A DNA stretch of 64,000 nt from assembly GCF_009914755.1 (NCBI RefSeq), contig NC_060929.1. One strand, written 5' to 3'. This DNA comes from the human T2T-CHM13v2.0 reference genome, Homo sapiens. Both the position numbers and the translations under genes were made by a program. How positions within the stretch are numbered: position 1 is the stretch's first letter; each line of letters starts with the position of its first letter. Shown in pieces: positions 1,375 to 60,646 of the stretch. The notes beneath the pieces are model-generated. The model was not told where the DNA came from. It made no database searches and was given only the letters and a program-made list of their open reading frames with translations.

Positions 1375-2670
1375 TGCTCTGTCCTGAGGACCCTCAGGTG
1401 TGGCCCATCCAGCCCCTCAGTGTTTACCTCTGTCCTAAGGACTCTCAGGTGTGGGCGGTCCAGCCCCTTAGTGTTTCCCTCTGTTTTGGAGATCCTCAGG
1501 TATGGTCAATCCTATTAGTGTTTTCCTTTGTACTGGGGATGCTCAGGTGTGATCTATCCATCTTCTCAGTGTTTTACCTCTTTCCTGGAGACCCTCAGGT
1601 TCCATCCATCCATCCAATTGGTTTTTACCTCTGTCCTGGAGACCCTGAGGTGTGGTCTATCCATCCCATTAGTGTTTACCTCTGTCCTGGGGACCCTCAG
1701 TTGTGGTCAATCCATCCCATTAGTGTTTTTCCATTGTCCTCGAGACTCTCAGGTGTAGTCTATCCGTCCCATTAGTGTTTACATCTATCCTGGGAACGCT
1801 TAGGTGTGGTCTATCCATTTCTTTAGTGTTTACCTCTGCCTTGGGCCCCTCAGATGTGGTCGATCCCCAAAGTGTTTTATCTCTATTCTGGGGAATCTCA
1901 GTTGTGGTTCATCCATCCGCTTAGTGTTTACCTCTGTCCTGGGGACCCTGAGGTGTGGCCCATCCCCTTATTGTTTACCTTTGTCCTGGGGGCCCTCAGA
2001 TATGGCCCATCCATCCCCTGAGTGTTTTACCTCGGTCCTCGAGACCCTCAGGTGTGGTCTATTAATTTAGTGTTTACCGCACCCTGGGGACTCACAGGTT
2101 TGGTCTATCCCAATAGTTTTTTTATGTCGGCCCTGGGAACTCTCAGATGTGGCCCATCCATCCCGTCAGTGTTTCCCTCTGTCCTGGGGTCACTCAGGTG
2201 TGGTCCATCCACCCCCTCAGTGTTTCCCTCGGTCCTGAGGATGCTCAGGTGTGGCCCATCCAGCCCCTCAGTGTTTTCCTCGGTCCTGGGGATGCTCAAG
2301 TGTGGTCCATCCATCCCCTCAGTGTTTCCCTCGGTCCTGAGGATGCTCAGGTGTGGCCCATCCAGCCCCTCAGTGTTTTCCTCGGTCCTGGGGATGCTCA
2401 GGTGTGGTCCATCCAGCCCCTCAGTGTTTCCCTCGGTCCTGAGGATGCTCAGGTGTGGCCCATCCCTCCCCTCAGTGTTTTCCTCGGTCCTGGGGATGCT
2501 CAGTTGTGGCCCATCCATCCCCTCAGTGTTTTCCTCGGTCCTGAGGATGCTCAGGTGTGGCCCATCCATCCCCTCAGTGTTTTCCTCGGTCCTGAGGATG
2601 CTCAGGTGTGGCCCATCCATCCCCTCAGTGTTTTCCTCTGTCCTGGGGATGCCCATCCCCTTAGTGTTTT
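1375..2670. repeat. 51-bp minisatellite, ~25 copies; diverged on the left, near-identical at 2150-2660
   Basis: Unit gtgtggcccatccagcccctcagtgtttccctcggtcctgaggatgctcag; gives a 17-aa periodicity in the ORF track. Confidence 0.95.
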
Positions 2671-4283: not shown

Positions 4284-4874
4284 CAGGTGCGTCCTTCTTT
4301 CTCCCTTTCCAGGGAGAATGCTCTGCTCTTCTTCCTGCTGGATCCCTCCTCTACCTGCTTCTCTCCCACCTCCTGCAGCCCCCGGAACCCCATGGCGATG
4401 CAGGCAGACTCATCTGTACCCTCATTCTGTTTGCAGAACCACATCTCTGGGCTGGCTCTGCCCAAGGACACCACACCTTCTCCATTCCTCTTGCCCTTTC
4501 CCCGTGGGGTGCAGGTGGGGCTGGGCCCATGATGGCATCAGGCCCACTCTCTCTCATGCAGGAAGGGATCAGATGCCGGGAGCCATGGAGATTGTCCTCA
4601 TCCCGATCATCTCCCAGCTTAGCAAATGATGATGAAGACAGTTTTCCCACAAGATAGGCATAGCCTCTGGGACAGTGCCTCGTTTATTTTCTAGCACAAA
4701 ATAGACGTTAGAACAGTGGGGCTTTGTGGGCATATGGAGATTTGTAAAGCTCCTTAAGAGGCAGGTAAAAATTTCTTCAATAAGACAAAACACTATCCCC
4801 AAAGAAAATGATTGATACATTGGATGATAGTAAAATTAAGAATTTTTTCATCAATAAGAGAGTAAAAAGATGGG

Positions 4875-5196
<322 letters not shown>

Positions 5197-5359
5197 TCAC
5201 ATGTAGAGTATAAAGAGAATTCCTGTAAGTTAATAAAAATGCATGCGGGGCTTAATACCTAGGTGATGGGTTGATAAGTGCAGCAAACCACCATGGCACA
5301 TGTTTACCTATGTAACAAACCTGCACGTTCTGTACATGTATCCCAGAACTTAAAGTAAA

Positions 5360-5652
5360 ATTTTTTTTTTTTTGAGACGGAGTCTCGCTCTGTCGCCCAG
5401 GTGGATTGCAGTGGCGTGATCTCAGCTCATTGGAAGCTCTGCCTCCTGGGTTCACGCCATTCTCCTGCCTCAGCCTCCTGAGTAGCTGGGACTACAGGCA
5501 CATGCCACCATGCCCAGCTAATTTTTGTATTTTTAGTAGAGACGGGGTTTCACCGTGTTAGCCAGGATGGTCTCGATCTCCTGACCTCGTGATCCACCTG
5601 CCTCGGCCTCCCAAAGTGCTGGGATTACAGGCATGAGCCACCGCGCCTGGCC
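5360..5652 (-). mobile_element. AluY/Sc-like inserted in L1 tail
   Basis: Antisense Alu flanked by the duplicated target taaagtaaaat. Confidence 0.92.
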
Positions 5653-6538
5653 TAAAGTAAAATAAATTTTTTAAAAAATTAAGAAAAAAGCTGGCAGACC
5701 AATAGGACAATGGGTGAAAGAAATGAAGAGGGACACAAAAGGGAAAGAAGAAAGGGAGGGAGGAGGGGGGAGGGAGGGAAGGAGGGAGAGGAAAGAGCAA
5801 ATGAACATCCAAATGGCCAAAAAGCATTTAAAACATGCTCAGCCTCATAAGCCATCAAGTTTAAACCACAGTGAGAAATCAATATTACACCTACCAGAAT
5901 GGCTAAAATTAAAAACACTGTTGATACCAAGTTTGGGCAAGAATGTGGAGTAACTGAAACTTCATATACTATTGGGAATGTAAAATAGCACAACTACTTT
6001 GGAAAACCCCTGGGTAATACCTACTAAAGGAGACCACACCTGTGATCCCCACATTCCACTCCTGTGCATAGACCCAAAAGAACTGTGCACTGTGCACGTG
6101 TTCACCAAATGACGTGCGACGTGCACTAGAATGTTTATACCAGCACCCTTCACAATAGCCCCAACTTCCAACAGGAGAATGGATAAGTACCTCTCAGTAT
6201 ATTTATAGAGTAAAGTTCTTACAGCACTGAAAATGGATTAACAGCCGCCATGCACAGTTGGTGAATCTCAGCAACATAATGTTGAGCAGAAGCAGCCAGA
6301 CACAAATGAATGCGTACGGCACGATTGTGTTTCTGCGAAGCCCTAAAACAGGCCAAAGAAACATCTGGTGAGAAGTCAGGATAGCGATGATCTTAGTGCT
6401 CTGGGGGAGGGTGGCTCTGGTATTATTCTATTTCTTGATCTGAGGGCTGGTGTCCCAGACGTATTCACTCTATGATAATTTACCAAGCTGCCCTCTGGGG
6501 ACTGGTGGCTTCTCTGTATGAATATTACACTTCAATTA

Positions 6539-7080
<542 letters not shown>

Positions 7081-7513
7081 CTAGAAAACAGTAAGGCAGT
7101 TCCTCGGAAATTATACCTAGGGACGCTCCAGCAATTCCACTTCTGGGTTTATATCCCCCAAAAATTGAAAGCAAGGAAATAAAGAGACACTCACCCATCC
7201 CTGTTGATAGCCGTGTTATTCAAAATAGATAAAAGGTGGGAGCAACTCATATCCATTGACAGACGAAGGGATCAATAACATGCGGTATGTACATACAATG
7301 GAATATTATTCAACCTTACAAAAAAAGGGTATTTGGACCTAGGCCTCAACATAAATGAATCTTGAGGACTATGCTGAATGACATAAGGCAGACACAAAAG
7401 GACAAATATTGTGTATTTCCACTCACATGAAGTACCTAGTATATTTCATAGAGACACAAAGTAGAATGTGTCTATGAAGTATACAGGGGCATGCTTGAAG
7501 TATACTAGGTCTA

Positions 7514-8143
<630 letters not shown>

Positions 8144-8758
8144 TCAGGACCTCCTCACCAGAGCTATACTTTGAGTGCACAGTAGCCATATGTCTATACT
8201 GCAGAAAACATTTCCATCCTCCCAGAACCTTCTCTCATGCAGCTTCTGTGAGCCTCGCATCAGTTGTGTTCACTGAACTCATCTAACTCAAAGCACATGC
8301 ATCAAAGCTGGAATTTCAGGGTTATCGGTTTGCAGGTGAGAGCCGTAATGGTCCAGTGGAAGTGTACAGCTGGAAGGGAATGTCGTCAGCTCCTCCTCCT
8401 CACCTGAAGGCTCTCGACTATGAGCCGTGCCTTGTTGACAGCCTCTGAGTCCACAGAGCACAGGGAGAATCTGAGGACACAGGACAAGGCAGGGGACCTT
8501 GTGTCCTCCACGTGGTTGCACGTAGAGTAGAAGAGCTGGGTGAGTAACTCTCTGGAATCACCTTTCTGCTGATGTTTGTGTCTCTACAGATGGGCTCAAG
8601 GACAGCTTGCCTGACTGCAGCCATAAGGGTGAAGCCTCTTCAGGTAGAGAAGGACTCCAGGTGGGGCCTGTGCAGAGGGTTCTTACGGGCGCAGTAGGAT
8701 TGGGGCTATAAAATCAGTAAATGGAAAAGGAGCCAGGTGCAGAAGTCTGATTTATTCC

Positions 8759-9061
8759 TTTTTTTTTTCTTTTTCTTTTTGGAGACAGGGTCTTACTCTG
8801 TCACCCAGGCTAGAGTGCAGTCAGTGTGCCACTGTGGCTCAACCTCCGTCTCCTGGGCTCAATCAATCGTTCCACCTCAGCCTCCAGAAAGTAGCTGAGA
8901 ATACAGGTGCATGCCACCATGCTTGGCTAAGTTTTGTACTTTTTGTAGAGACAGGGTTTCGCCATGTTGCCCAGGCTAGTCTTGAAATCCTGGACTCGAG
9001 ATCTGTTCACCTCGGCCTCCCAAAGTGCTGGGATTATAGGCAAGAGCCACCGAGCCCGGCC
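8759..9061 (-). mobile_element. AluJ-like
   Basis: Diverged antisense Alu. Confidence 0.9.
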
Positions 9062-10770
9062 TCCTTTTGTATTTTAATTAAGACAGAGTCCTAAGAGGTT
9101 GTGTTTGCATGGATGTTGTGTGTGCTCTGCTTGTCATATTCATTTCTTGCTCTGGTGTTTAAAGATGACCTTTTGCAGAAAACCAGATCTTTCCTGCCTG
9201 TGCCACAGAAAGCACTAAATCCTTGGGTTTTGATGGGATGGCATCCTTTGTGAATGGAGAACACGGGATTAGTATGTGGGTGTGGCGTTTGGTGCTATGC
9301 GGGGAGTGATGTGGGACACAGCCCCTCACAGCCCCTAAGTCTCCCTGGAGACAAAGTCTCCCACGTGTGTGCCAGGAGGTGGGAGGAGTCCACCCTCTCC
9401 CTCTGCACCCTTGGGACCTGCAGCAGCACCTTCCTGTCCCGTCCTCACCATCGGCTCCGGGTTGAAAGGCACCCACAGGGTTGGATGATGCAGAGAATCC
9501 TTCCTCTGGGATGAATATGTATGCCCCCGCTGTGGAGGCACGAGGGGAAGCCCACGCTTCACCCGCCGTGGGGTCGCGAGGGGAAGCCCACGCTTCAGCA
9601 TGTTTCTGGCCACTCCTCACCCAATCCCAAATCCTTGGGTTAGGAATGAAGCCTTAATTGGGTTTCATTTGAGAAGTCAGCGTCCAGCTGTCACCGAGGC
9701 CCTCCGTGGCTGGCAGGAATCCTAGGGGACATGCGTGGAGGGGCTGCTGTGTTGCTGCAGGCACTGGCTCTCACCCTCCCCGTGACCTGGCTCCAGGAAT
9801 CCACCACGCCCAGGACGGGGCCACTGGGCAGCCGGCACAGGGCTCAATTTTTTGTCACGCCCTTTGCTCTGGCCTGGCAGCCTTGTCCTGTTCCCCACGC
9901 TGCCATCAGGCCCAGCGTGTTCCCTGGGTCAGGCCGGCCAGGTGCCCTTCCGCCCAGTCCTCCCACAGCTCAGGCAAACCCTGGCAGGGCCCCTTCGTTC
10001 ATATGCTAACAACCACGGCTTCACCTGCGGATTAAGGCAATGGGAAAATCCCGTTCTGTCCTTGCCAATCATTGAGATGCTAGTGGGATTCTTGTTAGGC
10101 TTGAATAGTTTACATTTCCAGGGTCATCCCAGGCTTTGGTCATCATCATCTCTCACAGATCCCAACACAACCCAGGCCTGTGGCCATGTCCCTGACCTAG
10201 GGTGGGATCCATGGATTTACTGGAAGGACTGGCAGTGCCCTTCTTTCCAATGTTGTTCTATTGGAGACCAGTAGCATTGGTGGAGGTTGACATGGAGAAA
10301 GGAAACGGGCATCAATCAGGAGAACAAAATCAGGCCCTAACGGTTAGAGCAGAGAGGGAAGTCTGTGCCAGGCACAGAGCATCATGGAGACAGTGGCCGC
10401 CTCCTGGGGAAAGGGGATGACACGGGCCTCCCCTCCCTGGGGAATTTGAGGGTTATGGAATTTGAAGGCTGGGAAAGCATGTGGGAAATCAGAGGCCCCT
10501 CCCTCGCTGTAGGGAGGAAGTGATCCAGGCTGTGGAAAGGACTCTAGAGATGAGCACACTAGAGCCTCTGGGGTTGGCGTCACAGCCCCAGGACAGCGGG
10601 GCCCAAATGGCCCCTCGACTCTAACTCTCCCCTTTCCTTCCCATGGCTGCCCCATCACCGCTGCTGCTCCGGACACCCTGAAGGTCATTTGGCCAATTTA
10701 ATGCCGACAGAAGAGGCCACCATCTGAATGTAATTTATCTCCTCTTTCATCTCCTTTCATTCCCCTCCTC

Positions 10771-10966
10771 CTTTTTTTTTTTTTTTTGGGACAGAGTCTC
10801 ACTCTGTTGCCCAGGCTGGAGTGCAGTGGCGTGATCTTGGCTCACTGCAAGCTCTGCCTCCCAGGTTCACGCCATTCTCCTGCCTCAGCCTCCTGAGTAG
10901 CTGGGACTACAGGCACCCGCCACCACGCCCAGCTAATTTTTTGTGTTTTTAGTAGAGACGAGGTTT
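10771..10966 (-). mobile_element. 5'-truncated AluY-like
   Basis: Antisense right arm and linker only. Confidence 0.9.
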
Positions 10967-11208
10967 AGCGTGTCTATGTGACACCCCAGGATTTTAGCAG
11001 ATACACAAGTGAAAAACCATGTTGCTAAAAAGTATTTCCCATCTTCCAATTTTCTTATCATCATCTTGGAAATAAAATCTGTACGTACTTGGGAATAAAA
11101 TTTATTGAATTATCAAAAATATGTATGCTAATGTATGTGAGTCATTAGCTATATCCACATTGACATAAAATTTGTGAAGACTCTTCAAAATCTCTTAAAG
11201 ATTTATTT

Positions 11209-11618
<410 letters not shown>

Positions 11619-12119
11619 TCAGTGGGATTTAGCGTCAGTGATGAGGTGCGCCACTCACTGTGTGACTTCAGAGTGTTTCTGGGGAAAGAAAATGAAGTCC
11701 TGTGAAGTATGCGGAGCACCCTCAGCAGCAGCCGTGGATCTGAACAGCCTCCCAGACACAGACGCCATGGGTGTGAAGTGTGTCAGGAACAAGCGAAGTC
11801 ACCCACAATGGAGAGGAACACCCTAGTGTGCTAGAACTTTTGAACCACTTTTCCTCCTGTCTTGGGTCAGGCCTCATAGCTAACCCTTTGGTGCGCGGTA
11901 CTCTCTCTGGCTATTGGAGAGATGTGAGAAGCTTAAGAAAAGCAAATGAGAAGACGTGGAGCAGGCAGATGGCCGGTCCCCATGGAAGAGTCCCCATTGT
12001 GAGGCCTCCCTGGGGATCTGGCGGTGGCCACAACACACTGGCCGGTGAGATTGGTTGTGATTGTCATTGTTGTGGAAAATGATTATCATCTGTCCTCAAT
12101 GGTGCCAATGCTGACTCAC

Positions 12120-15100
12120 CTGGAGGTGGAATGATGGCCATGGTGACACTGAGGAGGGAGCGTGGCAGAGGGAATGATGGCCGTGGTGACACTGAGGAGG
12201 GAGCGTGGCAGAGGGAATGATGGCCGTGGTGACACTGAGGAGGGAGCGTGGCAGAGGGAACGATGGCCATGGCTGACATTGAGGAAGGAGCTGGCAGAGG
12301 GAATGATGGCCGTGGTGACACTGAAGAGGGAGCGTGGCAGAGGGAATGATGGCCATGGTGACACTGAGGAGGGAGCGTGGCAGAGGGAATGATGGCCGTG
12401 GTGATATTGAGGAGGGAGCGTGGCAGAGGGAACGATGGCCATGGTGACACTGAGGAGGGAGCGTGGCAGAGGGAACGATGGCCATGGTGACACTGAGGAG
12501 GGAGCGTGGCAGAGGGAACGATGGCCATGGTGACACTGAGGAGGGAGCGTGGCAGAGGGAACGATGGCCATGGTGACACTGAGGAGGGAGCGTGGCAGAG
12601 GGAACGATGGCCATGGTGACACTGAGGAGGGAGCGTGGCAGAGGGAACGATGGCCATGGTGACACTGAGGAGGGAGCGTGGCAGAGGGAACGATGGCCAT
12701 GGTGACACTGAGGAGGGAGCGTGGCAGAGGGAACGATGGCCATGGTGACACTGAGGAGGGAGCGTGGCAGAGGGAACGATGGCCATGGTGACACTGAGGA
12801 GGGAGCGTGGCAGAGGGAACGATGGCCATGGTGACACTGAGGAGGGAGCGTGGCAGAGGGAACGATGGCCATGGTGACACTGAGGAGGGAGCGTGGCAGA
12901 GGGAACGATGGCCATGGTGACACTGAGGAGGGAGCGTGGCAGAGGGAACGATGGCCATGGCTGACATTGAGGAGGGAGCTGGCAGAGGGAACGATGGCCA
13001 TGGCTGACATTGAGGAGGGAGCGTGGCAGAGGGAACGATGGCCATGGTGACACTGAGGAGGGAGCGTGGCAGAGGGAACGATGGCCATGGTGACACTGAG
13101 GAGGGAGCGTGGCAGAGGGAACGATGGCCATGGTGACACTGAGGAGGGAGCGTGGCAGAGGGAACGATGGCCATGGTGACACTGAGGAGGGAGCGTGGCA
13201 GAGGGAACGATGGCCATGGTGACACTGAGGAGGGAGCGTGGCAGAGGGAACGATGGCCATGGTGACACTGAGGAGGGAGCGTGGCAGAGGGAACGATGGC
13301 CATGGTGACACTGAGGAGGGAGCGTGGCAGAGGGAACGATGGCCATGGCTGACATTGAGGAGGGAGCTGGCAGAGGGAACGATGGCCGTGGTGACACTGA
13401 AGAGGGAGCGTGGCAGAGGGAACGATGGCCATGGCTGACATTGAGGAGGGAGCTGGCAGAGGGAACGATGGCCGTGGTGACACTGAGGAGGGAGCGTGGC
13501 AGAGGGAACGATGGCCGTGGTGACACTGAGGAGGGAGCGTGGCAGAGGGAACGATGGCCGTGGTGACACTGAGGAGGGAGCGTGGCAGAGGGAACGATGG
13601 CCGTGGTGACACTGAGGAGGGAGCGTGGCAGAGGGAACGATGGCCGTGGTGACACTGAGGAGGGAGCGTGGCAGAGGGAACGATGGCCGTGGTGACACTG
13701 AGGAGGGAGCGTGGCAGAGGGAACGATGGCCGTGGTGACACTGAGGAGGGAGCGTGGCAGAGGGAACGATGGCCGTGGTGACACTGAGGAGGGAGCGTGG
13801 CAGAGGGAACGATGGCCGTGGTGACACTGAGGAGGGAGCGTGGCAGAGGGAACGATGGCCGTGGTGACACTGAGGAGGGAGCGTGGCAGAGGGAACGATG
13901 GCCGTGGTGACACTGAGGAGGGAGCGTGGCAGAGGGAACGATGGCCGTGGTGACACTGAGGAGGGAGCGTGGCAGAGGGAACGATGGCCATGGCTGACAT
14001 TGAGGAGGGAACTGGCAGAGGGAACGATGGCCATGGCTGACACTGAGAAGGGAGCGTGGCAGAGGGAACGATGGCCATGGTGACACTGAGGAGGGAGCGT
14101 GGCAGAGGGAACGATGGCCATGGTGACACTGAGGAGGGAGCGTGGCAGAGGGAACGATGGCCATGGTGACACTGAGGAGGGAGCGTGGCAGAGGGAACGA
14201 TGGCCATGGTGACACTGAGGAGGGAGCGTGGCAGAGGGAACGATGGCCATGGTGACACTGAGGAGGGAGCGTGGCAGAGGGAATGATGGCCATGGCTGAC
14301 ATTGAGGAGGGAACTGGCAGAGGGAACGATGGCCATGGCTGACATTGAGGAGGGAGCGTGGCAGAAGGAACGATGGCCATGGTGACACTGAGGAGGGAGC
14401 GTGGCAGAGGGAACGATGGCCATGGTGACACTGAGGAGGGAGCGTGGCAGAGGGAACGATGGCCATGGTGACACTGAGGAGGGAGCGTGGCAGAGGGAAC
14501 GATGGCCATGGTGACACTGAGGAGGGAGCGTGGCAGAGGGAACGATGGCCATGGCTGACATTGAGGAGGGAGCTGGCAGAGGGAACGATGGCCGTGGTGA
14601 CACTGAAGAGGGAGCGTGGCAGAGGGAACGATGGCCATGGCTGACATTGAGGAGGGAGCTGGCAGAGGGAACGATGGCCGTGGTGACACTGAGGAGGGAG
14701 CGTGGCAGAGGGAACGATGGCCGTGGTGACACTGAGGAGGGAGCGTGGCAGAGGGAACGATGGCCGTGGTGACACTGAGGAGGGAGCGTGGCAGAGGGAA
14801 CGATGGCCGTGGTGACACTGAGGAGGGAGCGTGGCAGAGGGAACGATGGCCGTGGTGACACTGAGGAGGGAGCGTGGCAGAGGGAACGATGGCCGTGGTG
14901 ACACTGAGGAGGGAGCGTGGCAGAGGGAACGATGGCCGTGGTGACACTGAGGAGGGAGCGTGGCAGAGGGAACGATGGCCGTGGTGACACTGAGGAGGGA
15001 GCGTGGCAGAGGGAACGATGGCCGTGGTGACACTGAGGAGGGAGTGTGGCAGAGGGAACGATGGCCATGGCTGACATTGAGGAGGGAGCTGGCAGAGGGA

Positions 15101-16315
15101 ATGATGGCCGTGGTGACACTGAAGAGGGAGCGTGGCAGAGGGAATGATGGCCGTGGTGACACTGAGGAGGGAGCGTGGCAGAGGGAATGATGGCCATGGT
15201 GACACTGAGGAGGGAGCGTGGCAGAGGGAACGATGGCCATGGCTGACATTGAGGAGGGAGCTGGCAGAGGGAATGATGGCCGTGGTGACACTGAAGAGGG
15301 AGCGTGGCAGAGGGAACGATGGCCATGGCTGACATTGAGGAGGGAGCTGGCAGAGGGAATGATGGCCGTGGTGACACTGAAGAGGGAGCGTGGCAGAGGG
15401 AACGATGGCCGTGGTGACACTGAGGAGGGAGCGTGGCAGAGGGAACGATGGCCGTGGTGACACTGAGGAGGGAGCGTGGCAGAGGGAACGATGGCCGTGG
15501 TGACACTGAGGAGGGAGCGTGGCAGAGGGAACGATGGCCGTGGTGACACTGAGGAGGGAGCGTGGCAGAGGGAACGATGGCCGTGGTGACACTGAGGAGG
15601 GAGCGTGGCAGAGGGAACGATGGCCGTGGTGACACTGAGGAGGGAGCGTGGCAGAGGGAACGATGGCCGTGGTGACACTGAGGAGGGAGCGTGGCAGAGG
15701 GAACGATGGCCGTGGTGACACTGAGGAGGGAGCGTGGCAGAGGGAACGATGGCCGTGGTGACACTGAGGAGGGAGCGTGGCAGAGGGAACGATGGCCGTG
15801 GTGACACTGAGGAGGGAGCGTGGCAGAGGGAACGATGGCCGTGGTGACACTGAGGAGGGAGCGTGGCAGAGGGAACGATGGCCGTGGTGACACTGAGGAG
15901 GGAGCGTGGCAGAGGGAACGATGGCCATGGCTGACATTGAGGAGGGAACTGGCAGAGGGAACGATGGCCATGGCTGACATTGAGGAGGGAGCGTGGCAGA
16001 GGGAACGATGGCCATGGTGACACTGAGGAGGGAGCGTGGCAGAGGGAACGATGGCCATGGTGACACTGAGGAGGGAGCGTGGCAGAGGGAACGATGGCCA
16101 TGGTGACACTGAGGAGGGAGCGTGGCAGAGGGAATGATGGCCATGGCTGACATTGAGGAGGGAGTGTGGCAGAGGGAATGATGGCCATGGTGACACTGAG
16201 GAGGGAGCGTGGTAGAGGGAATGATGGCCATGGTGACATTGAGTCAGCACTTATTAGGTTCCACGTGTACATGGTCAAGTTTTCCTGTGGTTTTTCTCAG
16301 AAAGGAGCCATGATC
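12120..16315 (-). ncRNA. Candidate 4196-nt exon containing the whole 43-bp VNTR
   Basis: Minus-strand acceptor CTTTTCCTGTTTCACTGTTGCAG|G (AG at 16317-16316) and donor CAG|GTGAGT (GT at 12119-12118). No transcript evidence is available. Confidence 0.4.
12125..16243. repeat. 43-bp VNTR, ~96 copies, with variant units
   Basis: Unit gagggagcgtggcagagggaacgatggccatggtgacactgag; variants gccgtgg, ggctgacattg...gagctgg, ctgaagagg, gaatgatg. Confidence 0.98.
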
Positions 16316-16324
16316 CTGCAACAG

Positions 16325-16650
16325 TGAAACAGGAAAAGTGCTAACAAAACTGACTCCATTTTTATTTAATGGGCTTTTTCTCATCCCTGCATATAAGCTA
16401 GCATAATTTTAGAGCGCTAAGATAAAACGCAAAAGCGGTAATCATGTAGTTTTTGCAACTAACTGTGGGATTAATGGAAAGTATGTAAACAGCTAACTGT
16501 GGTTTGTTAAAGATTTATAGGAGCATTGTGATCTGACCAAGGAGAAAGAAGGTCCCAGCCTCCTGGGACCATTGCTGGCACCTGGATGTGTGAGGTAGTC
16601 AGGTACCTGTTGATCCCAACCCTCTCCTCTTCCACCCTCCGTTGAACCAG
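16325..16650 (+). mobile_element. ERV1/MER4-group LTR fragment
   Basis: TG start, actgactccatttt motif and LTR-like composition; subfamily not determined. Confidence 0.5.
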
Positions 16651-16865
16651 ATAAGCGCTTGTCAGTGCTGTTTTGGGAGTATTCTGCCCTGTGGTTAAAT
16701 AGGTGTGAGTGCTGGAGAGTCCTGCAGCAATCTGGGGCTTTCTGGTGCTGTGAAGACAGTTACTCTAAAAGTCCTGATGCCATCTCTGCACTTGGGTACA
16801 GTCGTGTGACTCTGGGTTTATGACAGATCCTTCAGCTACCCTACCTGCCACTCCATATCTGCTGA

Positions 16866-17183
<318 letters not shown>

Positions 17184-17224
17184 TGAGATTTTCATAATGT
17201 GTTTGAGACATGCTGTTTATTTCT

Positions 17225-17880
17225 TCTTTTTTTTTTACTTTTAATTGAAATATTGTATACATAGCAAAAAGTCATTCCTGTCATAAATGTACAGCTCAAT
17301 GAATTTTCATGAAATTTAATCATTAACCAGATTGAAATGAAAACCACAACAAAACCCATGACTGGAAGCCATCCCCGATAAGTCTTCTGCGGCCAGCTTC
17401 CTGTGGTGAGCCTCCCCATCAAGGGTAACTGCAGCCTCCTTGGAAATAAAGGAGATCAGGACTCCTTTTGTGTGAGCTTCATTTACTCTGTTTTGCGAGA
17501 TTGGCCCACATTGTCGCACGTGTTTAAGGATCTGTCCTTCCCGCGGGGACATAGCGTGCCAGGGCTGAAATGTCCTAGAATCTGTTCACAGGTTCTACTG
17601 TCAGTGAGGGTTTGGGTGGTTATGGCTTTGGGAGGTGATGAAAGTGCTGCTTTCCTGTGAGTGTCTTTGGGGAGCACACACGCTCTTTTCTGCCGGATAT
17701 TCTCCACCCAAGGGGTCGCCGGTCATCGCAGATGTGCTTGTCCACTTTCAGCAGCTACTGACAGAGTTTCCCAGGTGGAGCGTGCAACGGATATCACGCC
17801 AGCTGAGGAAGACAGTTTGGTTGCTCCCCAGCCTCTCCAACAATTGGTATTTTCTGATGTCTTCATTCTGGCCATGCTGA
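17225..17880 (-). mobile_element. Ancient L1M 3' fragment
   Basis: Antisense L1M-like 3' end (ttaattgaaatattgtatac...gtacagctcaatgaatttt) with decayed interior. Confidence 0.55.
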
Positions 17881-18587
17881 GGGATGCATTAAAAGCACAT
17901 AGAAAGTCCAGATGCCTCTGGGCAGCTCACAGATTCTGAATGTTGGGAGACAAGGACAACTGTCAATCTCTGTCAGTGCTAGGACTGATTCTCAGTATCT
18001 GACCCAAAACTAGGAACTGAGGCGATGGTTTGTGGTATTCGATAACGTTGTCAGCATATGCCCTAGAAGTGCTCAAATCCTGGCACATACACAACCTAGG
18101 GACGGGACAAACGTGAACTCGGCATGGTCGGTTATAGCTTGCGTCTAGCACCTTGTTTTTGCAACTCTCATGTCCAGCTGGGGTGGGGCCATGCACGGGC
18201 AGCATCCCGATGTCCCACCACCGCCCCGTCCACCCAGCTCCTCCAGAGGATGAATTACAGTGGCTTCCTAGTGGCAGGACAGATGAGGGGTCCCATCTAA
18301 TGCCAGGTTAAGATTGTCTTTCTTTTTCTGAGGTAGAAGCGGTGCTTTGCCGTTTTATCAATTGAGTTCAGTTATGGAAACGTGGCCACATACATTACAG
18401 AGGTTAGCGGCTGTTTCCTCAAGGGCTTGGGAAAGAAGTCTCTTACCAAACGAGGCCTGATTCAGGAGGGCACATAAGCCGGGTTGTGTCAGGTTCTTCA
18501 CTGTGCATAGAGAGCCTTTTCCTCAGTAGCAATTATTTCCTCCGTGGGTTAATAATTTTGCAACTGCTGATTGAAATAAACATGACA

Positions 18588-19319
<732 letters not shown>

Positions 19320-19829
19320 TTATCCTCTTGTTTTATAAAGTCAACAGGAAGAAACAAACAAACAACAAAAAAAAAACCCACCTGTGCTTAGAGAACACAT
19401 CGGAACCTATGGTACTGTAGTGCCTTCTTTTCTGTCACTGTAGGTGGCCTCAGAGGGGAAAATTCATGCATATTCTGCATGTGCCACTTGTGAAGGAGAA
19501 ATCTAGATGATAGGGAAGGTGAGTCTTCCTTGCTGGCTTTCGTCTGGGGAGCCACCCTGACTCCAGCTTTCTGGTTAGAATGAGGATTGGTGGTGATGAA
19601 GGAACATTATTTTCCAGGTAAAGCACTGTGACCGTGTTTCCACAAGCAGTTGCGTTTCCTTTAGCTGGTATGAGTTTGTGCGCGTGGGCGGTGGGGTGTG
19701 TCTGTGTGGGGTGGGATTTGTGTGGGGCGGCCGTGTGTCTGTGCCCACGTCTGTTTCCGCTGGTGTTATACTCCGCCTAGACAGCAGAGTTGCAGGTGTA
19801 AGCTTTCTCAACAAGGAATGCCGTCCCCA

Positions 19830-20851
19830 TTACTCCACAGCGTATATGTGGAGCCTAACCGGGTGGACTGCAAGGCAGTTCCGACCCTCACCACTCAGGG
19901 TTAGCACCAGATTCCACAACTCCAGAGCTGAGTCCCACAAAACTGCCCTTACTTCAGACACCAGCTGAACTTTGGGAGTCCCCAAGCCACCTGCACTTCT
20001 GACAAACTGGCTATAAATTCAAGGATTACCATGACTTCCTCAGGTTCAAAACTTCACTAGAAATGACTCAGAGAATTCAGAAAAGGGCTATATTTACAAT
20101 TTGATTAGAAATGATCTGCATAGAGCAAGGCGTATGGGGCTGGGGGGTCCTGGATGCATGGCTTCCATGCCTTCTGTCTGGGGAATCGGGTGGCGTGCTG
20201 GGGGTGGGTTCCAGGTCACAGTTGGATTCAAAGGTTTCTTGATTGGCAGTTGGTTGAAAGGGTTAAACTCTGTCTTAAAAGTTGAAATCAGCTTCAATTA
20301 GGTAACATGGTGTGGTCGGGGGTGGGAGTTTGGGAAGTTGTGGGAGCCAAGGTTCTTGTCACGTAAATGACACTTCCAGGCAGAGGGCTTCAGAGAGGAT
20401 AGACGTAAACGTCTCTTATTGGACTTAAAAGGTAACAGACTTTCTGGAAAGACCTAGTGATGGAGCCATATGCTCTACAGATTGCAAATTTCCCACAAAG
20501 AGACAGCTGTGTTGGGCCATTCCAAAAAATGTCAGAGAAATCTGTCTCGGGGTAAAATACTCAGACTTCCTTCAGGACCTGCTTTCAGGTGATGCTATAC
20601 CAGAGCGCATTTGAAGTTGGGTATCTTATTGCTACAAGGCGTTTCTTCCGTCAGTCTTAGGATCTCTATTTTCATGTCACTGCTGCTCAGTTGGGTCTGA
20701 ACCACAAAGGGTGGAGGGAATACTGAGGCGTGCCCGACCCCTCTTCTCCCTCATGGCCTGAATGAAGTTTTCAGGTTTATTTGGGTCCCCTTGGCTGAGA
20801 GGAGGATCCGTTCAGTTCATTGAGGGGCTTAGAAATTTAATTTTAATTTAC
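19830..20851 (-). mobile_element. MER21-like LTR (~19830-20190) and MER4-like LTR (~20195-20851)
   Basis: Recognised MER21 (cccacaaaactgcccttacttcagacaccagc) and MER4 (ttcttgattggcagttggttgaaag...gaggggcttagaaattt...tttaca) stretches; orientation is inferred. Confidence 0.65.
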
Positions 20852-30908: not shown

Positions 30909-32292
30909 GCTCGATATTACTGATCATTAAAGAAATGCAAATCAAAACCACAATGAGATACCATATCGTATCAGTCAGAATGGCTATTATTAAAAAATAA
31001 AAAAATAACAGATGGTGGCGAGGTTTTGGAGAAAAAGGAATGCTTATACACCGTTGGCAGGAGTGTAAATTAGTTCAACCATTGTGGAAGACAGTGTGGT
31101 GATTTCTCAAAGATATAAATACAGAAATACCATTCCACCCTGCAATCCCATTACTGGGTATATACCCAAAGGAAAATAAATTGTTGTTATAAAGACACAG
31201 GCACAGGTATGTTTATTGCAGCACTATTCACAGTAGCAAAGAAAAAAAAAAGACTCCAGGAGGCGTCCCTGGGAGACTTTCTCCAGCCTCATAGCCCATC
31301 TTGCGCCCAAGTGACAGCACGTGGCTTTCCTTTTGTGAGGGGAGCCCATGGGATTCACTCCCTTTTCCTATTTCCTCCGGGGTGAAGCCTCATGTGTCGG
31401 GACAATGTGGGATCAGGGACTGTCTGGGTGACCCTGGCGAGCCTCTCCTCACGGAGTTCTAGCGGCCATCAGGGAAAGGGGAGCACGCCCAGGGCGGCCG
31501 CCCCCAGGGGTGTTTGGATACAGGCCAGGAGCAGGCTGCTCTGTGATGGTGGGGCGGGGGGTGATAAGACTCCCCTGAGAGGCTCCCTTCGGTGCTGGAA
31601 AGATGGGACATGGGGAACCGCCTCCTGCCTGGACCTGTTGATGCCCAGAGCCACTCCCCTGGGTCCTCATCGCTCCTTCCAGGCAGTGAGGATGTGGGTT
31701 TCCAGGGGAATCCAGGCCTTTAGGGAGAGTGGGAATCTGACTTTGATCTTGCAGCTCCGCATTTTTCCTGCACATTTGCTGATTAGTTTATGCCTGTCAG
31801 GGGCCTCAGGGCCAGTGCTAAGTCCCAGGGTCTTAGGGTAGGAAAGATGATTCCCCAGATTTCCTGCAGGCATTTGAGCATGGTGGAAGGATCAGTGGAG
31901 CCTCCAGTGAAACTTGGCAGATTGCGCACTTCATTTATTTTCACTCTCCCAGGATCCTTCCCAAATTATCATAAATAAACAGAGAATTCTGAAACCTACA
32001 AAGAAAAATACAGCAAAAGAACAATGAATCAGTTTCAAAGCCTAGGCAGAGAGGCCGTAGGGTGACTGACAGCAGCCCCTGTGGGACTGGAGAGCAGACG
32101 GTTTGGTGGAAACAGCGCCCAGTTCCACAGAGGGAAATTGAGGAGAAGCAAAGTGACTGACCCAGCAGAGCCGGGCCCCAGACCCCCACCCCAGCCTGTG
32201 GGAACTGCAGGTGTGATCTGGGAACACACTGTTCTGTCCCTTCTATTTTTCTCTTCATATAAGCTCTGGTTCTAGAAACAACTCACCTGCAG

Positions 32293-32294
<2 letters not shown>

Positions 32295-32352
<58 letters not shown>

Positions 32353-32384
32353 GACACAGAGCACGTGGGAGCTCATTTCTCCCC

Positions 32385-32424
<40 letters not shown>

Positions 32425-32458
32425 CAGACACAGAGCACGTGGGAGCTCATTTCTCCCT

Positions 32459-32495
<37 letters not shown>

Positions 32496-32530
32496 ACACA
32501 GAGCACGTGGGAGCTCATTTCTCCCTGGGG

Positions 32531-32566
<36 letters not shown>

Positions 32567-32659
32567 CACAGAGCACGTGGGAGCGCATTTCTCCCTGGGT
32601 GTGTGTGTGTGTGTGTGTGTGTGTGGAGACACAGAGCACGTGGGAGCGCATTTCTCCCT

Positions 32660-32696
<37 letters not shown>

Positions 32697-32791
32697 AGAC
32701 ACAGAGCACGTGCGAGCTCATTTCTCCCTGAGTGTGTGTGTGTGTGTGTGTGTGAGAGAGACACAGAGCACGTGCGAGCTCATTTCTCCCT

Positions 32792-32829
<38 letters not shown>

Positions 32830-32974
32830 AGACACAGAGCACGTGGGAGCGCATTTCTCCCTGTGTGTGTGTGTGTGTGTGTGTGTGTGACACACAGAGC
32901 GCGTGGGAGCGCATTTCTCCCTGGGTGTGTGTGTGTGTGACACACAGAGCACGTGGGAGCGCATTTCTCCCTGG

Positions 32975-33018
<44 letters not shown>

Positions 33019-33104
33019 CACAGAGCACGTGCGAGCTCATTTCTCCCTGGGTGTGTGTGTGTGTGTGAGAGAGACACAGAGCACGTGCGAGCTCATTTCT
33101 CCCT

Positions 33105-33140
<36 letters not shown>

Positions 33141-33173
33141 AGACACAGAGCACGTGGGAGCGCATTTCTCCCT

Positions 33174-33211
<38 letters not shown>

Positions 33212-33473
33212 CACAGAGCACGTGCGAGCTCATTTCTCCCTGGGTGTGTGTGTGTGTGTGTGTGTGTGTGGAGACAGAGCACGTGGGAGCGCATTTCTCC
33301 GTGTGTGTGTGTGTGTGTGTGTGACACACAGAGCACGTGGGAGCGCATTTCTCCCTGGGTGTGTGTGTGTGTGTGTGTGTGACACACAGAGCACGTGGGA
33401 GCGCATTTCTCCCTGGGTGTGTGTGTGTGTGTGTGTGTGTGTGAGACACAGAGCACGTGGGAGCGCATTTCTC

Positions 33474-33508
<35 letters not shown>

Positions 33509-33540
33509 CACACAGAGCGCGTGGGAGCGCATTTCTCCCC
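32295..33540. repeat. Compound VNTR: 19 units of (GT)n plus a ~36-bp core
   Basis: Core gagacacagagcacgtgggagcgcatttctccctgg separated by variable GT tracts. Confidence 0.97.
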
Positions 33541-33880
33541 GGCTCCAGATGGCGGCGAGGAAAAGCGAGATCGCACAGGATCCAGGTTCTTTGAGGCCTG
33601 ATGCCCATTGTCCCACCCTCAGCCTTGGCCTGTCCCCAGCTTGCTGCTGCCTCAAACTACAGGCTTCCAAGCACTTACTGGAGCCATTTTTTCTCACGTA
33701 GCCCTCCAACTGTTAGTCAGGGTTAGCCAGGCTCTGTCCGCCCCCAGCCAATCAGACAGTCAGTTTCCCCAGCCAGCGGGGAGTTTCTGGTTTGCCAAGA
33801 CTCAGAGGCTGGTGGAAGCCAGACTGGGAAGGGGGTGGCTCTCCTGGCTGAGCGGGGGAGAGAGATGGGGCGGGCTGTCT
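33541..33880. promoter_or_regulatory. Candidate promoter (YY1-like, GC box, NF-Y CCAAT)
   Basis: CAGATGGCGGCG at ~33546-33557, CCGCCCC at 33738-33744, AGCCAATCAG at 33746-33755, GGGGCGGG at ~33868. Confidence 0.45.
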
Positions 33881-38685: not shown

Positions 38686-38832
38686 GGGCGAGTGTGGGCA
38701 GGGCGAGTGTGGGCAGGGCGAGTGTGGGCACGGCGAGTGTGGGCAGGGCGAGTGTGGGCAGGGCGAGTGTGGGCAGGGCGTGTGGGCACGGCAAGTGTGG
38801 GCACGGCGAGTGTGGGCACGGCGAGTGTGGGA
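38686..38832. repeat. 15-bp G-rich minisatellite, ~10 copies
   Basis: Unit gggcgagtgtgggca. Confidence 0.95.
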
Positions 38833-51570: not shown

Positions 51571-52178
51571 CCCTCTGTAGAATACACATTCCCAGAACTA
51601 CCGGAACATCTTCACCTCTACCATACTCTCACCCCTCTGTAGAATACACATCCCAGAACTGCCAGGACACCTTCACTCTGCCATACTCTCACCCCTCTGT
51701 AGAATACACATTCCCAGAACTGCCAGGACATCTTCACTTCTGCCATACTCTCACCCCTCTGTAGAATACACATCCCAGAACTGCCAGGACACCTTCATTC
51801 TGCCATACTCTCACCCCTCTGTAGAATACACATCCCAGAACTGCCAGGACACCTCCACTCTGCCATACTCTCACCCCTCTGTAGAATACACATCCCAGAA
51901 CTGCCAGGACACCTTCACTTCTGCCATACTCTCACCCCTCTGTAGAATACACATCCCAGAACTGCCAGGACACCTTCACTCTGCCATACTCTCACCCGTC
52001 TGTAGAATACACATCCCAGAACTGCCAGGACACCTTCACTCTGCCATACTCTCACCCATCTGTAGAATACACATCCCAGAACTGCCAGGACACCTTCACT
52101 CTGCCATACTCTCACCCGTCTGTAGAATACACATCCCAGAACTGCCAGGACACCTTCACTCTGCCATACTCTCACCCC
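51571..52178. repeat. 60-bp minisatellite, ~10 copies
   Basis: Unit ccctctgtagaatacacatcccagaactgccaggacaccttcactctgccatactctcac. Confidence 0.97.
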
Positions 52179-52749
52179 TGCCTAGCACACTGTGCTCATC
52201 CAGGACCCTCTGATTTCCTGAAAATGCTTTGATTGCACAAGAATACCTTGGCACTCTACTCCATGACAGATCCATTCAAGTCTACCCAAACCTTCAAGGA
52301 CCACCTGAGCTCCAGAAAACCTTGATCTCCCGCATTCAAATACCAAAAGTATATGCTGACCTACCTGAAAACCTTCACAGCTCTGGACTCCCAGAACATC
52401 CAGGAGCCTCTGAATCACGCAGCCAGACCAACCTCCAAAACATCCTAACTCCATGCAAGTGGTGTGATCTTCCAGGACAGTCTGACCTCGAAGCTGGTGA
52501 TGTTGTAAGGATACTTCAAGTGTTCTGACATGATGAAAATGCCTGTAGGCCCAGAACACCTGCCTGCCCTGACGCCCTGTCTCTCCAATACCCCTGCCTT
52601 CCCAATACCCCTGCCTTCCCAAGATGCTCCAAGTCTCCCAGACTCTCTGACTTTCACCATTAAGATCTCATCTGATCCTATGTGATCTCTTTGGATCCTC
52701 TTAACACCCTGTTCCCCAGGGTCCTCTGACCTTTTAAAATCCTACAAGA

Positions 52750-59877: not shown

Positions 59878-60550
59878 GGGATCGCGGATTCTGGGCTAGA
59901 TCGCAGACTTGGTATCGCGGATTGGGATTTGGATCGGGGATTTTGAGTTGGATCACGGATTGGGGGTTGGATCACGGATTGGGGGTTGGATCGCGGATTG
60001 GGGTTTGGATCGCGGATTGGGGGTTGGATCACGGATTGGGGGTTGGATCGCGGATTGGGGGTTGGATCACGGATTGGGATTTGGATCGGGGATTTTGAGT
60101 TGGATCACGGATTGGGGGTTGGATCGCGGATTGGGGGTTGGATCACGGATTGGGGGTTGGATCGCGGATTGGGATTTGGATCGCGGATTGGGGGTTGGAT
60201 CCCGGATTGGGATTTGGATCGCGGATTGGGGGTTGGATCGCGGATTGGGGTTTGGATCGCGGATTGGGGGTTGGATCGCGGATTGGGGGTTGGATCGCGG
60301 ATTGGGGGTTGGATCGCGGATTGGGATTTGGATCGCGGATTGGGGGTTGGATCGCGGATTGGGATTTGGATCGCGGATTGGGGGTTGGATCGCGGATTGG
60401 GGGTTGGATCGCGGATTGGGGGTTGGATCGCGGATTGGGGGTTGGATCGCGGATTGGGGGTTGGATCGCGGATTGGGGTTTGGATCGCGGATTGGGGGTT
60501 GGATCGCGGATTGGGGTTTGGATAGGGGATTTGGAGTTGGATTGGGGATT
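59878..60550. repeat. 19-bp CpG/G-rich minisatellite, ~35 copies
   Basis: Unit ggatcgcggattgggggtt. Confidence 0.97.
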
Positions 60551-60646
60551 TGGGGCTGGGTGTGGGGCGAGGGGGAGTGAAAGGGTGACACGGAGCTGCC
60601 GCGGCTCAGGAGCCAGTGGTTGGGGGTCTGAGAAGAACTCACCACC

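What the first reader, a model, noticed from the sequence alone, without database searches (positions are those of the whole stretch)
12114..16345. A 4.1-kb VNTR framed by strong splice sites: candidate giant VNTR exon
Seen on the minus strand: acceptor CACTTTTCCTGTTTCACTGTTGCAG|GATC (exon start 16315, ~70 nt before the array) and a perfect CAG|GTGAGT donor (exon end 12120, at the array edge). A given 9-mer is expected about once per 262 kb per strand under uniform composition. Without the expansion the exon would be an ordinary ~100-150 nt. The pyrimidine tract comes from the end of the adjacent LTR relic. Inference: a minisatellite expanded inside an exonised segment, so exon length (4196 nt here) and inclusion would depend on VNTR allele.
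Basis: partly seen in the sequence, partly recalled or inferred. Interest (0 to 1): 0.8.

Follow-up and report, generated by a model that had tools for sequence, protein, structure and literature searches.

The report
Large minisatellite framed by splice-site motifs
A 4.1-kb tandem repeat on human chromosome 5 sits between two very strong splice-site motifs that come from old mobile elements, inside the span of a little-studied non-coding RNA gene, so it may be one giant exon of variable length, but no RNA data could be checked here.

Summary
A 43-bp x 95.6-copy array lies at 12128-16243. On the minus strand a pyrimidine-tract/CAG|G acceptor gives exon start 16315 and a perfect CAG|GTGAGT donor gives exon end 12120. 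By a crude scoring matrix these rank 48th of 9,136 AG sites and within the top 2 of 6,838 GT sites in the window.

The acceptor tract is the 3' end of an old ~500-bp LTR-like element. The donor motif predates the expansion, because a chr12 paralogue without an array carries TAG|GTGAGC at the same place.

RefSeq shows no gene here. However, a supplementary table of Lu et al. 2023 lists GENCODE gene RP11-423H2.3 (ENSG00000249684) at hg38 chr5:177951413-177963960. My coordinate bridge puts this at about window 4875-17422, so it spans the array. Its strand and exons were not seen, because paper reading closed. Sequence hints favour a minus-strand start near 17422.

Exon use remains untested. I put it at about 0.4; rivals are an intronic or skipped array, or a plus-strand gene. 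A coding reading is rejected: the unit is 43/44 bp and no Pfam family matches. This is an ordinary kind of element (TE-derived splice sites, repeat-rich lncRNA) and a moderately interesting candidate.

The parts
12128..16243 (-). 43-bp minisatellite: 95 whole units (90 of 43 bp, 5 of 44 bp) in 17 variants, with long runs of identical units. On the minus strand it is 72% pyrimidine with no stop triplets.
   Evidence: single locus in the genome (all 13 matches lie in this array)
16316..16340 (-). Acceptor motif CACTTTTCCTGTTTCACTGTTGCAG; the first exon base would be 16315.
   Evidence: matrix score 8.2, rank 48 of 9,136 AG sites
16244..16315 (-). 72-nt non-repeated lead-in between the acceptor and the array. 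It is about 69% identical over 74 nt to chr12 locus L030 401-470.
12114..12122 (-). Donor 9-mer CAG|GTGAGT; last exon base 12120. It lies in the first bases of an old sequence whose chr12 paralogue has TAG|GTGAGC.
16317..16636 (-). 3' 320 bp of an old LTR-like element. The family is about 500 bp, starts TGTAACC... and ends ...CACTGTTACA.
16361..16370 (-). ATTAAA/AATAAA poly(A) signals of the LTR-like element, about 50 nt upstream of the acceptor.
16857..17195 (-). Alu, in sense orientation on the minus strand.
16840..16848 (-). Donor-like CAG|GTAGGG (last exon base 16845). It is the best minus-strand donor between 17422 and the acceptor.
17422..17504 (-). Mapped right end of GENCODE gene RP11-423H2.3 (about 17422), with TTTATTT at 17444-17450 (-28) and CCAAT at 17500-17504 (-82) on the minus strand.
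11436..12126 (-). Old sequence 66% identical over 739 columns to chr12 (L030 1378-2100). It starts at the array edge.
11205..11510 (.). Alu, 89-93% identical to other copies.
12036..12050 (+). Plus-strand donor-like CCG|GTGAGA (last exon base 12044), 84 nt before the array.
16279..16303 (+). Plus-strand acceptor-like GTTTTCCTGTGGTTTTTCTCAG|AAA (first exon base 16301), 58 nt after the array. Together with 12044 this is an intron-like frame on the other strand.

Best explanation
A single-locus, GC- and CpG-rich 43-bp minisatellite grew at the junction of two old sequence fragments. It lies inside the span of the GENCODE lncRNA gene RP11-423H2.3.

The most likely single reading has four steps:
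- The gene is read on the minus strand from about 17422.
- A first exon ends at the donor-like site at 16845.
- The intron removes the LTR's poly(A) signal.
- The next exon starts at the LTR-derived acceptor (16315), runs through the whole array because the array holds no donor and no poly(A) signal, and ends at the old, perfect donor (12120).

Exon length would then equal 80 nt plus the allele's array length.

Shown: the array, the motifs and their ranks, their origin in mobile or old sequence, and the absence of donors, poly(A) signals and stops inside the array. Inferred: the gene's placement on the window, its strand, and any use of the two sites.
For: - The array and motifs are confirmed.
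- The motif ranks are 48 of 9,136 AG sites and 2 of 6,838 GT sites, above most annotated sites in the window.
- Apart from the 12120 donor 8 nt beyond the array edge, the scanned span 12100-16330 holds no donor-like site scoring 4 or more on either strand. There is no AATAAA/ATTAAA between 16361 and 11500 on the minus strand.
- Lu et al. 2023, supplement file 3 (passage seen), has the row 'ENSG00000249684.5 RP11-423H2.3 chr5 177951413 177963960'.
- Coordinate bridge: the same row's VNTR start 177985816 matches the 15-mer array at window 38686. Course et al.'s PROP1 VNTR, 177978833-177980671, matches window 32295-33541. This gives a right end of about 17422 and a left end of 4875 minus the array-length difference between the two assemblies.
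- At 17422 the minus strand has CCAAT at -82 and an A/T heptamer at -28. That configuration holds at 569 of 128,000 strand positions (0.44%; 1.5% with 20 nt of slack).
- The only plus-strand AATAAA nearby (17445) lies after the mapped end, so it does not fit a plus-strand 3' end.
- RefSeq's LOC100128340 is on the plus strand and overlaps the mapped span. A separate overlapping gene is more often antisense (inference).
- From 17422 downstream on the minus strand, the best donor is 16845 (score 4.8) and the next strong acceptor is 16315.
Against: - No RNA evidence of any kind was seen.
- The RefSeq annotation of this assembly has no minus-strand gene between 10766 and 24682 (hub table).
- The gene's strand and exon table were not seen. 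The promoter-like test was defined after looking at the sequence.
- The coordinate bridge assumes no further insertions or deletions between 17.4 and 32.3 kb. It also rests on my reading of unlabelled table columns.
- Internal exons of 4.2 kb are rare and are poorly recognised by exon definition (recalled: Sterner, Carlo and Berget 1996).
- 91 acceptor-like sites scoring 2 or more lie inside the array. The commonest score (2.9) is reached by 413 of 8,541 AG sites outside the region, about the top 5%. The sites nearest the donor would give exons of 29, 72, 115, 171, 201 and 244 nt.
- The plus strand also frames the array, as an intron (donor 12044, acceptor 16301).
- The LTR's AATAAA at 16366 could end minus-strand transcripts before the acceptor.
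Confidence: 0.4

Rival explanations
1. The lncRNA is read on the minus strand, but the array is intronic or skipped. Splicing would go from 16845, or another upstream donor, to an acceptor beyond the array (for example 11678, score 9.0, or the Alu-derived 11483, score 8.5). Alternatively the strong donor at 12120 pairs only with nearby in-array acceptors, giving short exons of 29 + 43n nt. The 16315/12120 pair would then be an unused or rarely used decoy.
For: - Strong acceptors lie just downstream of the array.
- The array holds 91 acceptor-like sites, giving exon sizes of 29-244 nt near the donor.
- Exon definition has a size limit (recalled).
- RefSeq has no model with this exon (hub table).
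- One equally strong, unannotated pseudo-exon exists elsewhere in the window.
Against: The 16315 acceptor is the first and the strongest one after the 16845 donor. In-array acceptors score about 5 bits lower.
Confidence: 0.3
2. The GENCODE gene is on the plus strand. The array would then be an intron between donor 12044 and acceptor 16301, or part of a long 3' exon. The minus-strand motifs would be chance.
For: - The plus strand has donor-like CCG|GTGAGA at 12044 (score 4.7) and acceptor-like ...TTTTTCTCAG|AAA at 16301 (score 7.9), framing the array.
- AATAAA at 17445 would fit a plus-strand end if the coordinate bridge were about 45 nt off.
- LOC100128340 shows that the plus strand is transcribed up to 10765 (hub table).
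Against: - The mapped end (17422) lies before that AATAAA, not after it.
- The bridge anchors agree within a few bases at three points.
- The minus strand has CCAAT and an A/T box at the right distances.
- A same-strand gene overlapping LOC100128340 would usually be merged with it (inference).
Confidence: 0.15
3. The array is a plain polymorphic minisatellite with no transcript through it that matters. The gene span mapped here is misplaced or reflects one poorly supported cDNA, and the motif pair is a coincidence of old mobile-element sequence.
For: - Both motifs are inherited from older sequence: the LTR end and the chr12 paralogue's TAG|GTGAGC.
- RefSeq has nothing here.
- Rough extrapolation: one 8/8 pseudo-exon per 128 kb of strand gives tens of thousands genome-wide. 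With more than 55,000 VNTRs (abstract of PMC8327921), some arrays are expected to sit inside such frames by chance.
Against: 12 papers name the lncRNA or its Ensembl id, including expression studies (listing only), and it appears in a tissue-by-gene (eQTL-style) table, here for sun-exposed skin. The locus is therefore expressed at a measurable level.
Confidence: 0.13
4. The array encodes a repeat protein. Three minus-strand ORFs of 1320-1402 aa cross it, and many units carry CACCATGG.
For: - ORFs lie at 12064-16272, 12096-16058 and 12116-16231.
- The minus strand has 0 stop triplets in 4116 nt.
Against: - The unit is 43 or 44 bp, not a multiple of three, so every copy-number change and each of the 5 44-bp units shifts the frame.
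- All three frames are open simply because the unit lacks stop triplets.
- No Pfam family reaches its cut-off. The best is zf-NPL4 at 15.7 bits against a cut-off of 25, in 3 of 3 frames tested on a 516-nt sample.
Confidence: 0.02

Closest known systems
Exonised mobile-element sequence (splice sites donated by LTR, Alu or MIR fragments) in lncRNAs (recalled general knowledge)
   Same: The acceptor's pyrimidine tract and the CA of CAG are the 3' terminus of an LTR-like element. 7 of 7 aligned copies from other loci share ...TTTCACTGTT(A/G)CA-like ends.
   Different: Use of the site is not shown. The body of the would-be exon is a 4.1-kb minisatellite rather than the element itself.
Coding VNTR exons such as MUC1 (recalled)
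   Same: A tandem array lies wholly inside one exon, so exon length follows the allele.
   Different: The unit is 43/44 bp, not a multiple of 3. There is no protein family and the context is a non-coding gene.
ABCA7 intronic VNTR that affects splicing (PMC5954066; title and abstract start seen in the listing)
   Same: A kilobase-scale minisatellite whose length is tied to the splicing outcome.
   Different: That array is intronic in a protein-coding gene. Here the array would be the exon itself, and no splicing data were seen.
Repeat-rich lncRNA exons (XIST repeats, FIRRE, NORAD, PNCTR; recalled)
   Same: If transcribed on the minus strand, the RNA would carry about 95 near-identical C/U-rich units, a multivalent layout like those RNAs.
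   Different: No binding or function data exist, and the copy number would be polymorphic.
The 'PROP1 VNTR' of Course et al. 2021 (PMC8327921; passages and supplement file 2 seen)
   Same: It is a neighbouring large VNTR in the same window (32295-33541), also with a CAGGTGAGT 9-mer 6 nt outside its low-coordinate edge.
   Different: It is a different array: the unit has an internal GT run and the flanks share no homology except Alus. The 43-bp array is not among the rows of their file 2. A word-start search for '1779' found only the PROP1 row's coordinates and unrelated numbers. File 1 was not searched.

Membership tests
Minisatellite / VNTR | Head-to-tail units of about 10-100 bp at one locus | tested here: met
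   Period 43, 95.6 copies, 96% matches. All 13 genome matches fall in this one array.
Minisatellite / VNTR | Copy number varies between individuals | not testable with these tools
   Only one assembly is held, and the hg38 array length was not seen. Runs of up to 12 identical units suggest recent block changes.
Internal exon of a spliced transcript | Acceptor with a pyrimidine tract and AG, and a GT donor close to consensus | tested here: met
   ranks 48 of 9,136 and 2 of 6,838.
Internal exon of a spliced transcript | Lies in a transcription unit on the same strand | tested here: inconclusive
   The span of RP11-423H2.3 maps over it. The strand was not seen; minus is favoured by the motifs at 17422.
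Internal exon of a spliced transcript | Junction reads or cDNA that use both sites | not testable with these tools
   No RNA data are reachable. Paper reading closed.
Internal exon of a spliced transcript | Size within the usual range for exon definition (below about 500 nt; recalled) | tested here: not met
   4196 nt in this assembly. It would be 123 nt with one unit.
Mobile-element-derived splice site | The splice motif lies inside the terminus of an interspersed repeat | tested here: met
   The family homology ends at 16317. Family ends are TGT...ACA and the length is about 500 bp. The family name was not determined because no repeat library was available.
Coding VNTR exon | Unit length a multiple of three, with a recognisable protein | tested here: not met
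   Units are 43 and 44 bp. No Pfam match is above its cut-off.
CpG island (Gardiner-Garden criteria, recalled: GC above 50%, observed/expected above 0.6, longer than 200 bp) | Composition thresholds | tested here: met
   The array has GC 62.7%, 205 CpG and o/e 0.67. The flanks have o/e 0.36 and 0.38. Methylation state is unknown.

The most novel reading that the evidence does not exclude
The array is the body of a 4-kb exon of lncRNA RP11-423H2.3, so each person's RNA carries a genotype-set number (tens to hundreds) of identical C/U-rich 43-nt units. This would be a multivalent platform for C/U-binding proteins or for triplex contacts with GA-rich DNA. Its dose and its inclusion (by the exon-definition limit) would both depend on VNTR length.
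Probability: 0.12. Interest if true: 0.6.

Novelty: new member of a known kind. Interest (0 to 1): 0.33.

Why it matters
If the two sites are used, this locus would be a clean natural test of two things:
- how exon length limits splicing, because alleles differ only in copy number;
- how repeat number sets the valency of a non-coding RNA.

It would also explain why expression measures of RP11-423H2.3 from short reads may be unreliable. If the sites are not used, the case is a useful warning. Consensus-grade splice motifs inherited from mobile elements can frame a minisatellite without any exon, on both strands at once.

Tried and rejected
- **Strong in-array acceptors.** I expected them to outcompete the flanking one. 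By the crude matrix they score only about 2.9 against 8.2, although both have 13 of 16 pyrimidines. I kept them only as a weaker argument.
- **Coding reading.** Rejected.
- **Known RNA family.** 0 Rfam matches at gathering score in 11000-17600.
- **PRDM9 13-mer CCNCCNTNNCCNC in the array.** 0 exact matches on either strand.
- **Paralogy between this array and the TG-rich array at 32.3 kb.** Only Alu-Alu matches were found.
- **MIR origin of the 72-nt lead-in.** This is suggested only by my memory of the MIR consensus. One match (L030) was found in 124 kb searched sensitively, and none in the genome word search, so it is left open.
- **Literature searches.**
  - The unit as a 40-mer is in 0 papers.
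  - 'AC136604', a clone name recalled from memory, is in 0 papers, so the recollection is probably wrong.
  - 'VNTR' + 'PROP1' led to a different array.
  - (any-term search of 'VNTR' and 'LOC100128340') listed no paper holding 'LOC100128340'; its listing only supplied the ABCA7 VNTR paper cited above.
  - only served to find the Lu et al. 2023 paper.
  - One search was badly framed (any 2 of 6 terms) and gave nothing on the lncRNA.
- **Papers and supplements not reached.**
  - Sulovari et al. 2019 is not held.
  - The supplements of PMC11614882 were not reached.
  - File 1 of both the Course and the Lu supplements was not searched. Lu file 4 was cut when stored.
- **Earlier findings of this scan.** Closed.
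Full report
**What is there**

Tandem Repeats Finder reports one array at 12128-16243: period 43, 95.6 copies, 96% matches, 1% indels.
- Cutting it at a fixed 7-mer gives 95 whole units, 90 of 43 bp and 5 of 44 bp, in 17 variants. Two variants that differ by one C/T at a CpG make up 63 of the 95.
- The units stand in long identical runs (for example 12, 8, 12 and 12 in a row), which is the pattern of recent block duplication.
- The array is 62.7% GC with 205 CpGs (observed/expected 0.67, against 0.36 and 0.38 in the 5-kb flanks). It is 72% pyrimidine on the minus strand.
- It is a single locus. A 473-base piece found 13 matches in the 3.1-Gb genome, all inside this array.

On the minus strand the acceptor text CACTTTTCCTGTTTCACTGTTGCAG|GATC puts an exon start at 16315. 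CAG|GTGAGT puts an exon end at 12120.

**Is it more than chance?**

CAGGTGAGT occurs twice in the window's 128 kb of strand. I scored all AG and GT sites with a simple matrix. Its frequencies are recalled from memory, so only ranks are meaningful.
- The acceptor ranks 48 of 9,136 and the donor 2 of 6,838.
- Of the annotated sites in the hub's table that could be scored, the acceptor beats 5 of 7 acceptors and the donor beats 7 of 7 donors.
- Under independence, such a pair around one given array is a 1e-5 to 1e-4 event.

Two things temper this.
- The motifs were not made by the array. They are older than it (see the next section).
- Framed segments of normal length with both scores of 8 or more do occur without annotation. 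There is one in this window (+ 19444-19518).

Extrapolated roughly, tens of thousands of such frames exist genome-wide. With more than 55,000 VNTRs (abstract of PMC8327921), some arrays will sit inside a frame by chance.

**Where the parts come from**

- The 320 bp upstream of the acceptor (16636-16317) belong to an interspersed family. It had 159 first-look candidates, of which 40 were scored at 75-81% identity.
- Copies from other chromosomes are about 500 bp, begin TGTAACC... and end ...CACTGTTACA. These are the hallmarks of a solo LTR.
- The window copy lacks the first ~175 bp.
- I could not name the family because no repeat library was available.
- The element carries ATTAAA/AATAAA at 16370-16361 on the same strand.
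- The masked stretch at 16857-17195 is an Alu, and so is 11205-11510.
- The sequence that starts at the array's low edge (12126-11436) is 66% identical over 739 columns to chr12 (L030 1378-2100). The 72-nt lead-in is 69% identical over 74 nt to L030 401-470, in the same order and orientation.
- The chr12 locus has no array and reads ...CCCCTCTGCCTCTAG|GTGAGCC at the homologous point.
- The donor motif therefore predates the expansion. The repeat unit (…CATCATTCCCTCTGCC…CCTCAG…) looks like the old junction sequence multiplied.

**Inside the array**

On the minus strand there are no stop triplets, no AATAAA/ATTAAA and no donor-like site scoring 4 or more. A transcript that enters it would run on to 12120. 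There are 91 acceptor-like sites scoring 2 or more, most of them CTCCCTCCTCAG|TGT at 2.9. That score is reached by 413 of 8,541 AG sites outside the region. The nearest ones would give exons of 29, 72, 115, 171, 201 and 244 nt with the 12120 donor. I had expected these to be stronger than the flanking acceptor, and by this matrix they are not.

**Transcription context**

RefSeq on this assembly has nothing on either strand between 10766 and 24682 (hub table). However, a supplementary table of Lu et al. [quoted passage not shown]

I bridged hg38 to the window in three steps.
- 177985816 is the start of the 15-mer array found at window 38686.
- The PROP1 VNTR of Course et al., 177978833-177980671, is the GT-run array at 32295-33541. 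It is 592 bp shorter here.
- Left of that array, the window coordinate equals hg38 minus 177946538.

The gene's right end then falls at about 17422, 1.1 kb beyond the acceptor. Its left end falls at 4875 minus the unknown difference in array length between the two assemblies. The span therefore encloses the array unless large rearrangements intervene.

The strand was not seen. Three hints favour minus.
- At 17422 the minus strand has CCAAT at -82 and TTTATTT at -28. That pair holds at 0.44% of strand positions in the window, or 1.5% with 20 nt of slack. This test was defined after looking at the sequence.
- The nearest plus-strand AATAAA (17445) lies after the mapped end.
- The gene overlaps plus-strand LOC100128340 yet is kept as a separate gene.

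If the gene is on the minus strand, the best donor after 17422 is CAG|GTAGGG at 16845, and the next strong acceptor is 16315. That intron would remove the LTR's poly(A) signal. A minus-strand AATAAA at 4688 would fit the left end if hg38 has 5 fewer units, but some whole number of units would give such a fit nearly half the time by chance.

**Rivals**

- The array may be intronic or skipped. Strong acceptors lie at 11678, 11596 and 11483.
- The gene may be on the plus strand. There a donor-like site at 12044 and an acceptor-like site at 16301 frame the array as an intron.
- A protein-coding reading is rejected. The three ORFs of 1320-1402 aa exist only because the unit lacks stops, 43/44 bp is not a multiple of three, and no Pfam family passes its cut-off.

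**Literature**

- 12 papers name the lncRNA or its Ensembl id (11 listed). They include a prostate-cancer study (45 mentions) and an eLife paper on human-specific lncRNAs (14 mentions).
Whether these papers describe the array is unknown.
- No paper prints the unit.
- The 43-bp array is not in file 2 of Course et al.'s 467 human-specific VNTRs.

**Verdict**

The exon itself remains a candidate. I put use of both sites at about 0.4, an intronic or skipped array on the minus strand at 0.3, a plus-strand gene at 0.15, no meaningful transcript at 0.13 and a coding reading at 0.02. One database look-up (the ENSG00000249684 exon table) and one junction query would settle it.

Noticed in passing
window 32295-33541: A VNTR whose unit holds a GT run of variable length. 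It is the 'PROP1 VNTR' of Course et al. 2021 (hg38 chr5:177978833-177980671, 1838 bp). This assembly's allele is about 1247 bp.
   Followed up: partly
window 32281-32289, minus strand: The window's only other CAGGTGAGT also lies on the minus strand exactly 6 nt outside the low-coordinate edge of a VNTR (the GT-run array), as at 12114-12122. The flanks of the two arrays share no homology except Alus. This is an unexplained coincidence.
   Followed up: partly
window 19444-19518, plus strand: An unannotated 75-nt segment framed by an acceptor and a donor that both score 8 or more on the crude matrix. It is the only such pair of 40-300 nt in the window and lies about 200 nt from the RefSeq enhancer 19736-20236.
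   Followed up: no
window 38686-38831: A 15-mer array (GGGCGAGTGTGGGCA, 9.9 copies). It matches hg38 chr5:177985816-177985991, the VNTR listed on the RP11-423H2.3 row (sun-exposed skin) of Lu et al. 2023's supplementary table. It is 30 bp shorter here.
   Followed up: partly
window 17687-17953 and 11436-12126; loci L031, L030: Two non-Alu stretches on either side of the array each have their only detected relative on chr12, 120 kb apart there (107.856 and 107.977 Mb) and in the same order and orientation. This could be an old low-copy element or an ancient duplication; it is not resolved.
   Followed up: partly
window 1377-2649, 51571-52179, 59909-60559: Three further sizeable minisatellites: 51-bp x 25, 60-bp x 10 and 19-bp x 34. 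The window is dense in VNTRs, as expected near a chromosome end.
   Followed up: no
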